This document shows, piece by piece, positions 1,946-5,999 of a stretch of DNA of 64,000 nucleotides. How positions within the stretch are numbered: the stretch's first letter is position 1; every line of letters begins with the position of its first letter. The stretch lies in sequence record MN655999; one strand, written 5' to 3'. Under the pieces are notes generated by a model. The model made no database searches and was not told the origin of the DNA. It was given only the letters and a program-made list of their open reading frames with translations. The position numbers and the translations under genes were made by a program. Source of the DNA: Shigella phage Z31.

Positions 1946-2015
1946 TTTTGAATCTCCAGTTTAGGAAAGCTCTTTATCTGGGGCTTAAGATATCAACTTT
2001 TAAGCCCCTTGTAAA
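1946..2015 (-). promoter_or_regulatory. B-type cassette (variant loop): TTTACA-17-TATCTT with 29-nt hairpin across spacer and -10
   Basis: Hairpin GGGGCTTAAGATATCAACTTTTAAGCCCC at 1980-2008; -35 rc at 2010-2015. Confidence 0.4.
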
Positions 2016-2020
2016 GTACT

Positions 2021-2269
2021 TTAAGCGTCTTTGTATTCGATTTCTATACACTCACCTTTTACTAGCTCAAAGGTCCAAATAATTCGTTTATACTCAATCA
2101 CTACTACAGTGACAAGGTTAGTTCTCTTCTCATTGGTTTTGAAGTCTATTGTGTGGGTATACTCATAACTAGCCTTATCCTTAATTTCCCCGTAGCGTCT
2201 ACACTCTTTATAGACTTCATCCATTAAGCCATTGCTAACCATGTTTTTTAGTTGAGTTTTAGTATACAT
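2021..2269 (-). CDS. hypothetical protein (82 aa)
   Basis: ORF track; conserved RBS GGAGG and ATG context. Confidence 0.55.
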   Translation of the reverse strand: MYTKTQLKNMVSNGLMDEVYKECRRYGEIKDKASYEYTHTIDFKTNEKRTNLVTVVVIEYKRIIWTFELVKGECIEIEYKDA

Positions 2270-2361
2270 TTTTGAACCTCCAGTTTAGGACTTTATTTAG
2301 TGGGGAAGGTTACTACCTCCCCGTTGATTGACAATTTACAGACTTTTATCAGGCTTGTCTA
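2270..2361 (-). promoter_or_regulatory. A-type cassette: TAGACA-17-TAAATT promoter + hairpin + RBS
   Basis: -35 at 2356-2361 overlapping upstream stop codon, -10 at 2333-2338, hairpin GGGGAAGGTTACTACCTCCCC. Confidence 0.4.
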
Positions 2362-2592
2362 GTCTTTTTCAATGATGATTTCATCTTGTCCGTCAACACT
2401 GTCAAAATAGATACCGTCTTCATCTTCTGTCTTAAAGTAGCATTGAATATCATCACTGGCTGGATAGTCTTGTCTTGCTATCTGGCAAACTTGAACAGCA
2501 TTCTCTTTACTCCCTGTAAACTCTTCAAGCCCTTTAAAGTCACATGAATGACCATTACAAATAGAAAGGATGAGATAAACGGTTGTAAGCAT
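2359..2592 (-). CDS. hypothetical acidic protein (77 aa) with hydrophobic N-terminus
   Basis: ORF track. Confidence 0.5.
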   Translation of the reverse strand: MLTTVYLILSICNGHSCDFKGLEEFTGSKENAVQVCQIARQDYPASDDIQCYFKTEDEDGIYFDSVDGQDEIIIEKD

Positions 2593-2658
2593 GATTAAAG
2601 CCTCCTAAAAGCCCCTGTGAGGGGCTAATCAGTGTTTATAAGGTGATTGCATAGGTTT

Positions 2659-3201
2659 TTATAAAAAGCTATTTAAATCTTTCTCTGCGATGTTTCCTGC
2701 CAGTGTGTCCATGATGTCACAAAAAACCTGAATACTATCTGACTGTTGAACACTTTTAGCGAGAAGCTCCAGAGACTCATCAAGATAGTTCATATTTGGG
2801 TTATCCAGTGAAGGAAGACAAAAAGGTGAATACATAGCGTTAAACTCTGTTACGTAAACCTTTTTAATCCAACTTACATCAAAGTACTCTGTAAAACTTG
2901 CCAGATTTGACATATTATCACAAGAATAATCATCATTTAAGTCATCCTCTGGGATATCAAGTTCCAATATAACAATATTTTGGGTTTTCATCTGGAAAGC
3001 TGCGGTAATAGCGGCATTACCTAGAGCCTGTTGGATACCTTCAGAGATTATCTCTTCCTCATCGTCGCCATAGATTTTATTTTCTGGGTACACGTAAAAA
3101 TTGCCGTCCATATCCGAACAATTCCATGCACCTGATGGCTTGTCACCGTTATTAATCAGGTTGAGGAAATTTTCTTGAGTAGTACCGTGAAAACATTTCA
3201 T
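2659..3201 (-). CDS. strongly acidic early protein (180 aa), no arginine
   Basis: ORF track; many D/E, few K, no R; early-region location. Confidence 0.55.
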   Translation of the reverse strand: MKCFHGTTQENFLNLINNGDKPSGAWNCSDMDGNFYVYPENKIYGDDEEEIISEGIQQALGNAAITAAFQMKTQNIVILELDIPEDDLNDDYSCDNMSNLASFTEYFDVSWIKKVYVTEFNAMYSPFCLPSLDNPNMNYLDESLELLAKSVQQSDSIQVFCDIMDTLAGNIAEKDLNSFL

Positions 3202-3209
3202 TTTTGAAT

Positions 3210-3280
3210 CTCCAGTTTAGGATTGAGTGGTAAAGCTCTTTATCTGGGGCTTACTTTATCGAACTGTAAGCCCCTTGTAA
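3210..3280 (-). promoter_or_regulatory. B-type cassette: TTTACA-17-TAAAGT with hairpin GGGGCTTAC...GTAAGCCCC
   Basis: Hairpin 3245-3273; -35 rc at 3275-3280; -10 rc at 3252-3257. Confidence 0.45.
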
Positions 3281-3286
3281 AGTACT

Positions 3287-3490
3287 TTAACGATTATTTT
3301 TGATAACTTTTAAAACTGCACGGTAGCCTAAGCAATAGGAATCACCGAAGAGCGACCGACCCATGAATGAATCCTCTTTGATATCCTTTTCAGTGACGGT
3401 TTTTTCTACGCCGTGAAAAAGAACTATATCGCCAACTTTGATATCTTTGATGTGAGTAGTCTCAATGTTTAAACCATTAATAATAGCCAT
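3287..3490 (-). CDS. hypothetical protein (67 aa)
   Basis: ORF track; conserved start context. Confidence 0.5.
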   Translation of the reverse strand: MAIINGLNIETTHIKDIKVGDIVLFHGVEKTVTEKDIKEDSFMGRSLFGDSYCLGYRAVLKVIKNNR

Positions 3491-3582
3491 TTTTGAATCT
3501 CCAGTTTAGGACTTTATTTAGTGGGGAAGGTCATTACCTCCCCGTTGATTAGTAATTTAGCCTATCTAAAAATCAGTGTCAA
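3491..3582 (-). promoter_or_regulatory. A-type cassette: TTGACA-17-TAAATT promoter + hairpin + RBS
   Basis: -35 at 3577-3582, -10 at 3554-3559; hairpin GGGGAAGGTCATTACCTCCCC. Confidence 0.45.
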
Positions 3583-3592
3583 CAAAATTTTT

Positions 3593-4356: not shown

Positions 4357-4450
4357 TTTAGAATCTCCTAGTTTAAGGGTTTTACTTAGTGGGGAAGGTC
4401 ATTACCTCCCCGTTGATTAGTAATTTAGCCTATCTAAAAATCAGTGTCAA
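4357..4450 (-). promoter_or_regulatory. A-type cassette: TTGACA-17-TAAATT promoter + hairpin + RBS
   Basis: -35 at 4445-4450, -10 at 4422-4427; near-identical to the 3491-3582 copy. Confidence 0.45.
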
Positions 4451-4779
4451 ATACTTTGTTTTCGTTTGCTCAACTCTTGAACAATTACAGCGTAGTAGTC
4501 TTTTAAGTCACTGATATTCAAAGCATTTATCAGTGAATTATAATCATCGACTAACTGAAAATCATCTTTGAAGATGTCACTTATCTGATAGGTTTTCGCT
4601 TTATATCTGAAGCTCATCTCTAGCCGCTTTATTTGCTCATCACTGAGGCGTCCTAGAAAGCCCTCTACCAAGTTATTACTAACCTGCTGTGTGATTGCCT
4701 TATTTGCTATATTATAGGCCTTATACGCCTTATATAGCGCGAAAATGGCAATGGTTGCAGTGATACCAATCATTAACAC
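4447..4779 (-). CDS. hypothetical protein (110 aa) with N-terminal transmembrane helix
   Basis: ORF track; N-terminus MLMIGITATIAIFALY. Confidence 0.5.
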   Translation of the reverse strand: MLMIGITATIAIFALYKAYKAYNIANKAITQQVSNNLVEGFLGRLSDEQIKRLEMSFRYKAKTYQISDIFKDDFQLVDDYNSLINALNISDLKDYYAVIVQELSKRKQSI

Positions 4780-5069
4780 GGTGTTTCCTCTTTACGTGAT
4801 ACTTTGCCATTTACAGTTATCTCATAGGATTCTAATAAATCACTTTTAGCCTTAACAGGACTTTTAAAAGTATCATCATAGATATTAACTTGTAATACAG
4901 GTTTTTTATATTCCCTGCAACTATTCCATAAGCAAATCACTACACGACGGCCTTTTATTTTGCCGTGTAACCATTCCATCACCTCATGAGTATTTCTTGA
5001 GGTCTCGATAAAATCAATTTTGTTGAGTAATTTACTAAGGTTTTCCCTAACTTTATTTGATAATTTCAT
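4773..5069 (-). CDS. hypothetical protein (98 aa)
   Basis: ORF track. Confidence 0.5.
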   Translation of the reverse strand: MKLSNKVRENLSKLLNKIDFIETSRNTHEVMEWLHGKIKGRRVVICLWNSCREYKKPVLQVNIYDDTFKSPVKAKSDLLESYEITVNGKVSRKEETPC

Positions 5070-5072
5070 TTT

Positions 5073-5149
5073 TGAGTCTCCTAGTTTAAGGTTAGTTAAT
5101 AAAGCTCTTTATCTGGGGCTATCTTATCAGCTTGATAACCCCTTGTAAA
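5073..5149 (-). promoter_or_regulatory. B-type cassette: TTTACA-17-TAAGAT with hairpin (one mismatch)
   Basis: Hairpin 5115-5142; -35 rc at 5144-5149. Confidence 0.4.
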
Positions 5150-5157
5150 GTACTCTA

Positions 5158-5448
5158 TTACTTAATTTTCAGCTTTGCATGACTTCTCATTGTGCGAATA
5201 GGTGACGTCATGGCGATGCGTCTGATATATGCCTTTTTAGTGTATACATTCGTTTTCCCGATAGTGTTTACACATGTAAAAAGGTTTATTGGTGAATTTT
5301 TTAAATTCATTTGTTTATCCGCCTTCACGTTCCACCTTACAGCAGTTTGTTTTCCGTTGTCAACCACTTTCCCGCCTAACTTTTTCGCGATGATGCGAGC
5401 GTCATCACGAGTTTTTGCAGGAATTACAACGTTTTTAATAATAGCCAT
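5158..5448 (-). CDS. hypothetical basic protein (96 aa)
   Basis: ORF track. Confidence 0.5.
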   Translation of the reverse strand: MAIIKNVVIPAKTRDDARIIAKKLGGKVVDNGKQTAVRWNVKADKQMNLKNSPINLFTCVNTIGKTNVYTKKAYIRRIAMTSPIRTMRSHAKLKIK

Positions 5449-5455
5449 TTTTGAA

Positions 5456-5528
5456 TCTCCAATTTAGGATTTAGTGGTAAAGCTCTTTATCTGGGGCTTA
5501 CTGTACAGCCTTATAAGCCCCTTGTAAA
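5456..5528 (-). promoter_or_regulatory. B-type cassette: TTTACA-17-TACAGT with hairpin
   Basis: Hairpin 5493-5521; -35 rc at 5523-5528. Confidence 0.4.
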
Positions 5529-5536
5529 GTACTTTA

Positions 5537-5917
5537 TCAGTTAATTTTGAAAATTGTCACATAGCCATCACTGCCGATTATTTGAGACACTCCAGCTTTT
5601 TCTACTTGATAGCCCATATTTTCAAGATGATAAACAGCATCATCATAACCATATGCGCCACCCTGATAACGTCTCTTATCGCATCTTATCAGGTTTTTAC
5701 CACGTCCTGCAAGTGCATTCAGTACAGCTTTTTCACTTGATAGCGTACCATCTAACATGGTTGCTGTGTAATGGTTGATTCTATTCCCGTTTACATCATA
5801 CTTAAAATTGAATGCGTGAACAACGATAATGTTACCTTTAAAATTTTCATCAAGTGACTTCTCCAGTGCGTTGCGAAAGTTGTCTTTGTTGATGAATTTA
5901 GGTGCACGATAAGCCAT
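5537..5917 (-). CDS. hypothetical protein (126 aa)
   Basis: ORF track. Confidence 0.55.
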   Translation of the reverse strand: MAYRAPKFINKDNFRNALEKSLDENFKGNIIVVHAFNFKYDVNGNRINHYTATMLDGTLSSEKAVLNALAGRGKNLIRCDKRRYQGGAYGYDDAVYHLENMGYQVEKAGVSQIIGSDGYVTIFKIN

Positions 5918-5924
5918 TTTTGAA

Positions 5925-5999
5925 TCTCCTAGTTTAAGGTTAATGTAGTAAAGCTCTTTATCTGGGGCTTACTTTATCGAACTATAAGCCCCTTGTAAA
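5925..5999 (-). promoter_or_regulatory. B-type cassette: TTTACA-17-TAAAGT with hairpin
   Basis: Hairpin 5964-5992; -35 rc at 5994-5999 directly after upstream stop. Confidence 0.45.

What the first reader, a model, noticed from the sequence alone, without database searches (positions are those of the whole stretch)
1946..5999. B-type early cassettes: -35-like TTTACA, a 29-nt GC hairpin spanning spacer and -10, then a shared RBS (6 copies)
Seen: six intergenic copies (hairpins at 1980-2008, 3245-3273, 4045-4073, 5115-5142, 5493-5521, 5964-5992). On the coding (minus) strand each reads TTTACA, then 17 nt, then a TAnnnT hexamer (TAAAGT, TATCTT, TAAGAT, TACAGT), with a conserved GGGGCT...AGCCCC stem whose loop varies between copies. 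Stem conservation with loop variation suggests selection on structure or a palindromic operator. Inference: early promoters overlapped by an operator or a terminator-like hairpin for read-through transcripts.
Basis: seen in the sequence. Interest (0 to 1): 0.6.

Follow-up and report, generated by a model that had tools for sequence, protein, structure and literature searches.

The report
Promoter-plus-hairpin cassettes between early phage genes
Six near-identical spacers between small early genes of a Felix O1-like phage each combine a host-type promoter with a conserved RNA hairpin. This is the same design as the "PeSL" cassettes of T4-like phages, so it is real and well supported but not a new kind of element.

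Summary
The window is a Felixounavirus genome (about 90% identical to wV8), and six minus-strand intergenic cassettes are present; two hairpin coordinates are off by 1-2 nt and one hairpin is 28 nt.

I collected 208 copies (53 distinct hairpins) from four Ounavirinae genera:
- The hexamer TTTACA (TTGCAA in Erwinia phages) is always followed, 17-18 nt later, by a -10-like hexamer.
- In the otherwise variable loop, the conserved positions are the -12 T, -11 A and -7 T.
- The 9-bp stem covaries: 99% of cells paired, with C-G/U·G/U-A and A-U/U-A/C-G exchanges. Wobbles are nearly always G·U on the coding strand, which favours an RNA hairpin over a DNA operator.
- The predicted start is the A just after the stem, so only read-through RNA from upstream carries the hairpin.
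- No U-tract follows the stem.
- A weaker lower helix extends the structure to about 20 bp.

Gene gains, losses and swaps between relatives end inside the cassettes.

The architecture matches the PeSLs of phage RB49, where promoter and terminator activities were demonstrated. In Felix O1-like phages these sequences had only been listed as direct repeats. Promoter activity and the hairpin's role are untested here.

The parts
5915..6008 (-). B cassette 1, from the stop codon of ORF 6006-6212 to the ATG of ORF 5537-5917. -35 TTTACA 5999-5994; hairpin 5992-5964; -10 TAAAGT 5976-5971; predicted +1 A at 5963; lower-helix strands 6007-5996 and 5960-5949.
5446..5539 (-). B cassette 2. -35 5528-5523; hairpin 5521-5493; -10 TACAGT 5505-5500; predicted +1 at 5492; lower-helix strands 5536-5525 and 5489-5478; ATG of ORF 5158-5448.
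5067..5160 (-). B cassette 3, the 28-nt hairpin variant GGGGTTATC..GATAGCCCC with a U·G pair. -35 5149-5144; hairpin 5142-5115; -10 TAAGAT 5126-5121, preceded by TGa (extended -10); predicted +1 at 5114; ATG of ORF 4773-5069.
3995..4086 (-). B cassette 4. -35 4078-4073; hairpin 4071-4043; -10 TAAAGT 4055-4050; predicted +1 at 4042; ATG of ORF 3593-3997.
3199..3289 (-). B cassette 5. -35 3281-3276; hairpin 3274-3246; -10 TAAAGT 3258-3253; predicted +1 at 3245; ATG of ORF 2659-3201.
1941..2023 (-). B cassette 6, with a shortened linker before the RBS. -35 2015-2010; hairpin 2008-1980; -10 TATCTT 1992-1987, preceded by TGa; predicted +1 at 1979; ATG of ORF 1797-1943.
14298..14327 (-). Related promoter-hairpin between rIIA and rIIB: TTGACA-a-GGGGCTTCAAAGCCCC-t-TAGAAT. 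The hairpin lies wholly inside an 18-nt spacer. Same design principle, outside the reported span.
   Evidence: the same element is present in wV8 and Felix O1

Best explanation
Each element is a composite regulatory cassette of the PeSL type (promoter-early stem-loop) and works at two levels.

On DNA, TTTACA, a 17-nt spacer and TAnnnT form a promoter for the host sigma-70 RNA polymerase. It starts transcription at the A immediately after the stem (CCCC-A-GAUAAAG) and drives the small early gene downstream through a standard 5' UTR and RBS.

On RNA arriving from the upstream gene, the same sequence folds into a G-C-clamped 9-bp hairpin, probably extended by a lower helix made of the -35 region and the first 15 nt of the downstream UTR. 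This marks the 3' end of the upstream message. It would act as an attenuator or insulator and/or as a processing and 3'-stabilising structure, not as a canonical intrinsic terminator.

Because about 90 nt are repeated in one orientation in front of many non-essential genes, the cassettes also serve as crossover points. Single genes are gained, lost and swapped between related phages at these points.

Shown here: the sequence anatomy, conservation of the promoter positions, covariation and strand asymmetry of the stem, and breakpoints falling in cassettes. Inferred: promoter activity, the exact +1, and what the hairpin does to RNA.
For: Identity and spread:
- The window is a Felixounavirus.
- The cassette occurs in 287 phage records, all of them Felix O1-like sequence (two records carry other host names).
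- 208 copies and 53 distinct hairpins were collected from 13 GenBank loci and 46 IMG/VR stretches.

Promoter:
- Every bona fide copy has TTTACA or TTGCAA followed at 17 nt (18 nt in copies with a 1-nt insertion) by a -10-like hexamer. This is TAnnnT in Felixounavirus, Mooglevirus and Suspvirus apart from one TAAAGC copy, and TGa-GA(C/T)TAT in the Erwinia-phage genus Kolesnikvirus.
- In the alignment of 37 distinct 29-nt hairpins, the only fixed or nearly fixed positions in the second half of the loop are T17 and A18 (invariant) and T22 (at least 90%), which are the -12, -11 and -7 positions; A10, in the first half of the loop, is also at least 90% conserved and is unexplained.
- The unpaired CA of TTTACA is invariant.
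- The alternative -10 in the stop-codon region has no -35 above background, whereas 58 of 60 A-type cassettes do. This works as an internal positive control for the method.
- In Felix O1, ORF16 and ORF20, which follow the published 57-bp repeat, peak at 5 min by RT-PCR.

RNA hairpin:
- 99.1% of cells are paired; covariation score is 0.195 against 0.095 in shuffles (0 of 500 shuffles reach it). Sliding the partner columns drops pairing to 68% or less.
- Pair 5 is CG 24 / UG 25 / UA 3. Pair 7 is UA 40 / AU 13. Pair 9 is AU 18 / CG 11 / UA 10 / UG 9 / GU 3. In pairs 1-9 there are 38 sense-strand G·U pairs against 2 A·C.

Lower helix:
- It is predicted in all six copies.
- 94.3% of cells are paired, with GC/UA exchange at one pair.

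Recombination:
- 29 of 36 internal alignment ends against seven relatives fall in cassette intervals that make up 24.5% of the sequence.
- Explicit junctions lie in the shared RBS module or between flanking B cassettes.
- Module maps show g6, g7, g23, g15 and g16 present or absent, and g4 relocated, between cassettes.
- The flanked proteins have no Pfam match.

Precedent:
- RB49 PeSLs have the same layout, including hairpins overlapping the -10.
- Their promoter and terminator functions were shown by lacZ fusions (PMC2839356).
Against: - There is no experimental 5'- or 3'-end mapping for any Felix O1-like phage in the searchable literature.
- The promoter is sub-consensus (9 of 12 matches), and such matches are common in AT-rich DNA (48 found against 35 expected in 12 kb).
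- No U-tract follows the stem (AGAUAAAGAGCUUUAC), so intrinsic termination is doubtful.
- Folding energies do not uniformly favour the sense strand: sense is more stable in 33 distinct hairpins and antisense in 15.
- Felix O1 ORF17, which follows a B cassette, peaks at 25 min rather than 5 min.
- Breakpoints in intergenic DNA are partly expected from selection against gene disruption, and many breakpoints are shared by descent among the relatives compared.
- Copies within a family are related by duplication or conversion, so covariation counts are not independent events.
- The lower helix has only one pair with double-sided changes and is absent in Kolesnikvirus.
Confidence: 0.62

Rival explanations
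1. The main job of the RNA structure is processing. Read-through RNA folds into a roughly 20-bp interrupted helix (6 bp, a 1x1 mismatch, 5 bp, a 3x3 internal loop, a 9-bp upper stem). Host RNase III cuts it, as at the intergenic sites of the T7 early region. This leaves a protective 3' hairpin on the upstream mRNA and a downstream mRNA whose 5' end nearly coincides with the promoter's own +1. This is a more specific version of the best explanation, not a contradiction of it.
For: - The extended fold is predicted for all six copies, z = -3.1 to -5.1, and for the Mooglevirus copies.
- 94.3% of lower-helix cells are paired, with GC/UA exchange at one pair and UG to UA or CG at another.
- No U-tract follows the stem, so a non-termination role is needed.
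- The dimensions resemble T7 RNase III sites (my own knowledge of T7, not tested here).
Against: - Only one lower-helix pair shows double-sided change, and 8 of 38 flank combinations are unpaired at that pair.
- Kolesnikvirus copies lack the lower helix.
- The two flanks are near-palindromic direct repeats of each other, so their complementarity could be a by-product.
- No RNase III determinants were tested, and there are no experimental data.
Confidence: 0.2
2. The element is only an RNA 3'-end, terminator or stabiliser hairpin for the upstream gene. The resemblance to a promoter is incidental, and the downstream genes are expressed by read-through from A-type promoters.
For: - The stem covaries and is sense-biased.
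- The promoter match is only 9 of 12, and promoter-like matches are frequent in this AT-rich DNA.
- A-type promoters are interspersed every 1-2 genes and could feed the region.
Against: - An RNA hairpin does not require its loop to keep T, A and T exactly at -12, -11 and -7 relative to an invariant TTTACA. This holds in all loop variants, and the spacing is kept at 17-18 nt even after indels.
- The unpaired CA of TTTACA is invariant.
- Kolesnikvirus keeps TTGCAA, 17 nt and TGa-GAnTAT with a different stem sequence.
- The same layout in RB49 has demonstrated promoter activity.
Confidence: 0.12
3. The inverted repeat is a double-stranded DNA operator. A phage or host dimeric repressor binds GGGGCTTA..TAAGCCCC over the promoter and shuts off early transcription.
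For: - The palindrome overlaps the spacer, the -10 and the discriminator, a typical operator position.
- The outer four G-C pairs are invariant.
Against: - About half of the distinct hairpins carry T opposite G at pair 5, which breaks the DNA palindrome but pairs in sense RNA.
- Pairs 7-9 change sequence while keeping complementarity.
- The half-site spacing changes with 28-, 29- and 30-nt variants.
- Kolesnikvirus has a different arm sequence.
- GGGG..CCCC clamps are generic in this phage: A-type hairpins and other stem-loops in this region begin and end the same way.
Confidence: 0.06
4. The repeats are selfish or passive: a small mobile element, or scars of recombination, with no regulatory function.
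For: - There are many copies per genome (up to 10), tandem duplications, and an association with indels.
Against: - Every copy has the same orientation and the same place (stop codon to ATG) and supplies the RBS of the next gene.
- There are no terminal inverted repeats with target duplications and no transposase.
- Conservation is position-specific, in the promoter hexamers and stem pairs, across four genera.
Confidence: 0.04

Closest known systems
PeSLs (promoter-early stem-loops) of T4-like phages RB49/phi1, PST/T4 and nt-1/KVP40 (Arbiol et al. 2010, PMC2839356; Comeau et al. 2014, PMC4122927)
   Same: - The order of parts is the same: upstream stop codon in an AT-rich stretch, sigma-70-type -35, a G-run/C-run stem-loop placed in the spacer or overlapping the -10, then SD and ATG.
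- G·T pairs occur in the stems.
- Copies are repeated in front of small ORFans in a variable region.
- Indel and replacement breakpoints lie in the cassettes.
- The PST/T4-type PeSL promoter consensus TTTACW-N17-TAYWAT is close to TTTACA-N17-TAnnnT here.
- Even the RBS module is nearly identical: RB49 GGAGAATCAAAAATG against window GGAGATTCAAAAATG.
   Different: - The phage lineage is different (Ounavirinae, not Straboviridae), and no clear sequence homology was established beyond short functional motifs.
- The -10 hexamers are further from consensus than in RB49.
- The stem is longer (9 bp with an 11-nt loop), with an additional lower helix formed by the -35 region and the 5' UTR.
- Promoter activity, terminator activity and mini-circles have not been tested here.
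RNase III processing hairpins between the early genes of phage T7 (my own knowledge; not tested here)
   Same: Intergenic position between early genes. An interrupted helix of about 20 bp with an internal loop. No U-tract. The structure would leave a 3' hairpin on the upstream message.
   Different: T7 sites are not promoters and are not repeated cassettes. Cleavage by RNase III is not shown here. The lower helix has only modest comparative support and is missing in Kolesnikvirus.
Canonical Rho-independent (intrinsic) terminators
   Same: A G+C-rich stem-loop directly after a stop codon.
   Different: No U-tract follows the stem on the coding strand, so the terminator scan does not call any of the six. 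The true terminators of this phage do have T-runs (Felix O1 Table 2).
The 57-bp direct repeats of Felix O1 and DR_1/DR_7/DR_9 of wV8
   Same: These are the same sequences. Whichard et al. 2010 list CTTTACATGGGGCTTAAAAGTCTGTAAAGTAAGCCCCAGATAAAGAGCTTTACCACT between genes 15/16 and 19/20. The wV8 GenBank record marks them as repeat_region.
   Different: They were recorded only as direct repeats, with no promoter, structure or recombination role assigned. The Felix O1 paper states that how transcription is organised is not known.

Membership tests
PeSL (promoter-early stem-loop) cassettes | Intergenic, beginning at the upstream gene's stop codon in an AT-rich stretch and ending with the SD and start codon of the next gene | tested here: met
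   All six copies run from TAA/TAG to ATG, with TAAAGTAC upstream and CCTAAACTGGAGATTCAAAAATG downstream.
PeSL (promoter-early stem-loop) cassettes | Sigma-70-type -35 and -10 hexamers at about 17-nt spacing | tested here: met
   TTTACA-17-TAnnnT in six of six copies. The pattern is kept, at 17-18 nt, in all bona fide copies among 208 from relatives. T-12, A-11 and T-7 are the only fixed or nearly fixed positions in the second half of the loop, the part that holds the -10 hexamer. The match to consensus is 9 of 12, weaker than in RB49.
PeSL (promoter-early stem-loop) cassettes | A stable G-run/C-run stem-loop between the -35 and -10 or overlapping the -10 | tested here: met
   GGGG..CCCC 9-bp stem from 1 nt after the -35 to position -1, with the -10 in the loop and 3' arm. 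RB49 examples with the same placement were read directly.
PeSL (promoter-early stem-loop) cassettes | Preferential association with small ORFans in a variable (hyperplastic) region, and indel or replacement breakpoints in the cassettes | tested here: met
   Ten flanked proteins have no Pfam match. Gene presence, absence and relocation occur between cassettes. 29 of 36 alignment ends fall in cassette intervals, and junction sequences were read directly.
PeSL (promoter-early stem-loop) cassettes | Demonstrated promoter activity and terminator/attenuator activity in reporter fusions | not testable with these tools
   Shown for RB49/phi1 only. No TSS or reporter data were found for Felix O1-like phages. 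The only indirect data are Felix O1 RT-PCR timings.
PeSL (promoter-early stem-loop) cassettes | Formation of encapsidated mini-circles by recombination between neighbouring cassettes | not testable with these tools
   This needs inverse PCR on phage DNA. Tandem B-B arrangements in Mordin and E9 are compatible with it but are not evidence.
PeSL (promoter-early stem-loop) cassettes | Occurrence in T4-like myoviruses (the only group in which the family was defined) | tested here: not met
   The host genome is a Felixounavirus (Ounavirinae). It is therefore an analogue in another lineage, not a member by descent.
Intrinsic (Rho-independent) terminator | G+C-rich hairpin followed immediately by a run of U | tested here: not met
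   The sequence after the stem is AGAUAAAGAGCUUUAC. None of the six is called by the terminator scan.
RNase III processing site (T7 early type) | About two turns of interrupted double helix, cleaved by RNase III | tested here: inconclusive
   A 20-bp interrupted helix is predicted. The upper stem is strongly supported and the lower helix only modestly. Cleavage cannot be tested with these tools.
T4 middle (MotA-dependent) promoter / PmSL | MotA box TGCTTtA about 12 bp upstream of a -10, with a start site that leaves a usable leader | tested here: not met
   GAGCTTTA lies 11-12 nt before TAAACT/TAAATT in five copies, but only 1 nt before it in copy 6. The implied start would fall inside or after the SD. 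The Felix O1 authors found no polymerase-modifying factors.

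The most novel reading that the evidence does not exclude
The cassette encodes two routes to the same mRNA. RNA polymerase either initiates at the A just after the stem, or read-through RNA folds into a roughly 20-bp helix, built partly from the promoter's own -35 region and the downstream 5' UTR, and RNase III cuts it in the CAA/AGA internal loop. Both routes would give the downstream ORFan message almost the same 5' end and leave a protective hairpin on the upstream message. Each shuffled gene module would then be expressed as an autonomous unit wherever recombination places it.
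Probability: 0.15. Interest if true: 0.6.

Novelty: new member of a known kind. Interest (0 to 1): 0.4.

Why it matters
The authors of the Felix O1 genome paper stated that its transcriptional organisation was unknown. These cassettes, together with the A-type ones, supply a concrete map of candidate early promoters and RNA structures for a phage group widely used in Salmonella and E. coli typing, biocontrol and therapy.

They also extend the PeSL idea (portable promoter, hairpin and RBS units that let small accessory genes be swapped by homologous recombination) from T4-like phages to an unrelated myovirus subfamily. That suggests convergent or shared design in coliphages.

A -10 element maintained inside the loop of a covarying RNA hairpin is a clean natural example of one sequence under simultaneous DNA-level and RNA-level selection. 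It may also be useful as a compact part for phage engineering.

Tried and rejected
- **Palindromic DNA operator.** Rejected because of the sense-only G·U pairs, sequence-changing compensatory pairs and variable arm spacing.
- **Canonical terminator on the coding strand.** There is no U-tract, and the scan calls none.
- **Terminator for the opposite strand.** The wV8 record annotates one copy that way. There are no minus-sense genes here, and the wobble pairs would become A·C mismatches on that strand.
- **The stop-codon-region hexamer TAAAGT as the real -10, with the hairpin in the 5' UTR as in A-type cassettes.** No -35 above random background in 139 distinct contexts, against 58 of 60 for A-type. 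It may apply to the single copy at 5560-5531 (GTGACA-18-TAAAGT).
- **A -10 in the conserved AGATAAAGAG after the stem.** The matching -35 would lie in the variable loop.
- **MotA-box or middle-promoter reading of GAGCTTTAC.** The spacing fails in copy 6, and the start would fall in the SD.
- **Known RNA family.** Rfam gave nothing meaningful (best E = 0.1, far below the gathering score).
- **Literature search for TSS or transcriptome data on Felix O1-like phages.** None found. The wV8 paper says nothing on promoters. The phiEa21-4 genome paper is not held.
- **Pfam scan of ten flanked proteins.** No hits.
- **MAFFT alignment of all 53 hairpins.** It put the 28-nt variants out of structural register. 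Pairs were therefore counted from the stem ends by script, and formally on the 29-nt subset only.
- **Lower-helix count.** This uses an artificial construct: the real flanks joined by a fixed linker, made only so that pairs in the flanks could be counted.

Full report
**What the window is.** The region 1800-6200 matches 249 phage records. The best are Felix O1-like myoviruses at about 90% identity (wV8, E. coli O157 typing phages 1, 12 and 15). Fetched relatives are classified in Ounavirinae: Felixounavirus, Mooglevirus, Suspvirus and Kolesnikvirus. All genes in window 1 to about 14500 are on the minus strand. This stretch corresponds to Felix O1 genes 1-23, which run from rIIA/rIIB to a non-coding region.

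**Checking the observation.**
- Read on the minus strand, the six copies are: stop codon, TAAAGTAC, TTTACA, A, GGGGCTTA-loop-TAAGCCCC, AGATAAAGAGCTTTAC, linker, CCTAAACTGGAGATTCAAAAATG.
- AGCCCCAGATAAAGAGCTTT occurs exactly six times, against none expected. TTTACAAGGGGYT occurs exactly six times.
- The consensus scan finds TTTACA-17-TAnnnT in all six.
- Correct hairpin coordinates are 1980-2008, 3246-3274, 4043-4071, 5115-5142, 5493-5521 and 5964-5992.
- One hairpin is 28 nt and has a different stem, GGGGTTATC/GATAGCCCC.

**The same sequence in the literature.** The Felix O1 genome paper lists this element as a 57-bp direct repeat between genes 15/16 and 19/20. It also lists the A-type element as a 39-bp repeat. 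It assigns no function to either and says that transcriptional organisation and timing are not understood (PMC3185647). The wV8 GenBank record marks them as DR_1, DR_7 and DR_9. The wV8 paper does not discuss promoters. I found no transcription-start or transcriptome data for this phage group.

**Comparative sample.** A blastn search with one cassette finds 287 phage records, all of them Felix O1-like sequence (two records carry other host names), with several copies each. From 13 GenBank loci and 46 IMG/VR stretches I extracted 208 copies with 53 distinct hairpins.

**Evidence for a promoter.**
- Every bona fide copy has TTTACA (TTGCAA or TTTACA in the Erwinia-phage genus Kolesnikvirus).
- It is followed at 17 nt by a -10-like hexamer, or at 18 nt in the few copies with a 1-nt insertion. 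The hexamers are TATCTT, TAAGAT, TAAAGT, TAGTAT, TACCTT, TACAGT, TATGAT, TAGGAT and TATAGT, apart from one TAAAGC copy, and TGa-GACTAT or TGa-GATTAT in Kolesnikvirus.
- When the 37 distinct 29-nt hairpins are aligned, the loop is variable except at T17 and A18 (invariant) and T22 (at least 90%). These are the -12, -11 and -7 positions, the three most informative positions of a sigma-70 -10 element. One further loop position, A10 in the first half of the loop, is also at least 90% conserved and is unexplained.
- The CA of TTTACA is unpaired in every predicted fold yet invariant.
- With a 7-nt discriminator (AAGCCCC), the expected start is the A of CCCC-A-GATAAAG. In Kolesnikvirus it is the G after CCCC. 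The stem therefore ends at -1.
- As a control I tested the alternative that the stop-codon-region hexamer TAAAGT, which aligns with the TAAATT -10 of A-type cassettes, is the real -10. In 139 distinct B contexts the best -35 score 16-18 nt upstream is indistinguishable from random positions. In A-type cassettes, 58 of 60 contexts have at least 4 of 6 matches and 43 have at least 5 of 6. A-type cassettes therefore carry their promoter upstream of the hairpin, while B-type cassettes carry it around the hairpin.
- In Felix O1, ORF16 and ORF20 (behind the 57-bp repeat) and ORF21 and ORF22 (behind A-type repeats) are among 21 ORFs with maximal RT-PCR signal at 5 min. ORF17 and ORF19 peak at 25 min. 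This is weak, semi-quantitative support for early expression.

**Evidence for an RNA hairpin.**
- Counting pairs from the stem ends over the 53 distinct hairpins:
  - Pairs 1-4 are invariant G-C.
  - Pair 5 is C-G 24, U·G 25, U-A 3.
  - Pair 6 is invariant U-A.
  - Pair 7 is U-A 40, A-U 13.
  - Pair 8 is A-U 38, U-A 10.
  - Pair 9 is A-U 18, C-G 11, U-A 10, U·G 9, G·U 3.
  - Pair 10 onward is not maintained.
- On the 29-nt subset, 99.1% of cells are paired and the covariation score is 0.195 against 0.095 in shuffles (0 of 500 shuffles reach it). Pairing falls to 68% or less when the partner columns are slid.
- Within pairs 1-9 there are 38 G·U pairs on the coding strand and 2 A·C. The C-G to U-A transition at pair 5 passes through U·G, never C·A.
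- This asymmetry fits a structure in coding-strand RNA. It argues against a duplex DNA operator and against an opposite-strand terminator.
- Energies alone are less clear-cut: sense is more stable in 33 distinct hairpins and antisense in 15.
- The last two bases of the -10 hexamer are also stem pairs 9 and 8 (pairs 8 and 7 in the 28-nt variant). The compensatory swaps therefore show the two constraints being satisfied together.
- No U-tract follows the stem, and the terminator scan calls none of the six.

**A longer structure.**
- Folding whole cassettes pairs the 5' flank UAAAGU-A-CUUUA, which contains the first four bases of the -35, with the 3' flank UAAAG-A-GCUUUA.
- The result is 6 bp, a 1x1 mismatch, 5 bp and a 3x3 loop below the 9-bp stem. 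Energies are -21.9 to -27.5 kcal/mol and z = -3.1 to -5.1.
- Across 38 distinct flank combinations, 94.3% of cells pair. By copy count, one pair exchanges G-C (165 copies) for U-A (20 copies), one moves from U·G to U-A or C-G, and one from A-U to G·U. The covariation score is 0.113 against 0.077 in shuffles.
- Only one pair has double-sided changes, and Kolesnikvirus lacks this helix. I rate the lower helix as suggestive only.
- Its size and internal loop recall RNase III sites between T7 early genes. That comparison is from my own knowledge and is untested.

**Recombination.**
- Alignments of window 1-7000 to seven Felixounavirus relatives have 36 internal ends. Of these, 29 lie in cassette or intergenic intervals that make up 24.5% of the sequence. 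The ends are not independent events, and selection against gene disruption contributes to the pattern.
- Junctions read directly:
  - A 1.7-kb, six-gene block (window about 3485-1768) is absent from Felix O1, with the crossover inside the shared CCTAAACTGGAGAxTC..AAAATGGC module.
  - A g4-g5-[B] block (window about 6394-5936) is absent from wV8, with the junction in the same module.
  - Between two conserved B cassettes, the window has g6-[B]-g7 where Felix O1 has an unrelated gene.
- Module maps over 14 genomes show single genes present, absent or relocated between cassettes, and tandem B-B arrangements.
- Ten flanked proteins have no Pfam match.
- Three window copies share an identical or nearly identical loop, whereas the positional counterparts in wV8 and Felix O1 differ. 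This points to exchange among copies.

**Comparison with known systems.**
- Arbiol et al. 2010 described PeSLs in RB49/phi1. [quoted passage not shown]
- They contain G-T pairs, have promoter and terminator activity in lacZ fusions, are associated with ORFans in hyperplastic regions, and undergo recombination that produces mini-circles.
- Comeau et al. 2014 extended them to PST/T4 (consensus TTTACW-N17-TAYWAT) and nt-1/KVP40, all T4-like phages.
- I read RB49 intergenic regions directly. Several have a GGGG..CCCC hairpin in the 17-nt spacer, and others have a hairpin whose loop and 3' arm carry the -10, exactly like the B cassettes here. Their RBS module, GGAGAATCAAAAATG, is almost the same.
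- The element between rIIA and rIIB in the window (14298-14327) is the spacer-hairpin version.
- The architecture-level membership features are met. The experimental ones cannot be tested here. The lineage criterion (T4-like) is not met.
- I therefore file this as a PeSL-type cassette in a new phage lineage, that is, a new member of a known kind.

**Mechanism and confidence.**
- Shown: the anatomy; conservation of the promoter positions inside a variable loop; covariation and strand bias of the stem; breakpoints in cassettes.
- Inferred: that host RNA polymerase initiates at the A after the stem; that the hairpin acts on read-through RNA as attenuator, insulator, processing site or 3' stabiliser; and that recombination between cassettes is what moves the genes.
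- My approximate confidence in each part:

| Claim | Confidence |
|---|---|
| Promoter | 0.8 |
| Selected sense-strand RNA hairpin | 0.85 |
| Recombination role | 0.75 |
| Any one specific RNA function | 0.5 or less |
| Combined statement | 0.62 |

**Score.** The feature is real and nicely constrained, and it gives Felix O1-like phages a testable transcription map. However, the design principle has been known since 2010 and the repeats themselves were listed in 2010. Interest is 0.4.

Noticed in passing
window minus strand; hairpins 6436-6456, 4391-4411, 3523-3543, 2302-2322, 1219-1239: A-type cassettes have a TTGACA-like -35, 17 nt, TAAATT, and then about 10 nt later a GGGGAGG..CCTTCCCC hairpin with a sense-strand G·U pair. 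The predicted +1 is about 3 nt before the stem, so these transcripts would begin with a 5'-terminal stem-loop, a known mRNA-stabilising arrangement. 58 of 60 distinct contexts in relatives have a -35 with at least 4 of 6 matches. Mordin and SUSP1 versions close with a GAAA tetraloop. B and A upstream flanks align (TAAAGTACTTTACAA against TAAATTACTAATCAAC), which suggests that one type derived from the other.
   Followed up: partly
window 14298-14327 (-): Between rIIA and rIIB lies TTGACA-a-GGGGCTTCAAAGCCCC-t-TAGAAT, with the hairpin entirely inside an 18-nt promoter spacer. It is conserved in wV8 and Felix O1. It corresponds to the second PeSL layout described for RB49.
   Followed up: partly
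window 1-620: This non-coding stretch at the end of the transcription unit has several short direct repeats at 11-nt spacing: TTGTTAAGAAA twice at 178-199, GGGCTTTAcAG twice at 51-72, GGAAAGGGcAg twice at 540-561, and CTAACAAG three times at 127-156. They look iteron-like and could mark an origin or packaging region.
   Followed up: no
window 625-644 (-) and 575-612 (-): The last cassette of the operon keeps the A-type -10 and CAAC, but is followed by a short hairpin GGGGCTAAATAGCCCC + AGATACC (a B-like tail), and then a true terminator (AAAGCTCCTTTTCATAGGGGCTTTTTT). The same arrangement is present in wV8, Felix O1, Mordin, SUSP1 and Sf16.
   Followed up: no
L060 (RB49) 14722-23309 compared with window RBS modules: The RBS-to-ATG module of RB49 PeSLs (GGAGAATCAAAAATG) is almost identical to that of this unrelated phage (GGAGATTCAAAAATG; Mordin GGAGAATCTAAAATG). 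This could be convergence on an optimal E. coli translation start, or exchange between coliphages.
   Followed up: no
L001 (Mordin) 5643-5735; L010 (E9): Two B elements lie in tandem with no gene between them; the second -35 follows directly after AGATAAAGAGCTTTACCAA. This is the product expected if a gene between two cassettes was deleted unequally or excised.
   Followed up: no
GenBank GU169904 (Staphylococcus phage SA1) and MG065664 (Campylobacter phage A132): Records named for Gram-positive or Campylobacter hosts carry about 90% identical Felix O1-like DNA, including the cassettes. They are probably chimeric, contaminated or mis-assigned records.
   Followed up: no
L002 (wV8) 10524-10568: The wV8 record annotates one B hairpin as a Rho-independent terminator on the opposite strand. 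The sense-strand G·U bias argues against that reading.
   Followed up: partly
window 5531-5560 (-): One B cassette (copy 2) also has an upstream promoter-like match GTGACA-18-TAAAGT, with TG before the -10, inside the end of the preceding gene. This copy might therefore have two starts, one of which would include the hairpin in its 5' UTR.
   Followed up: no
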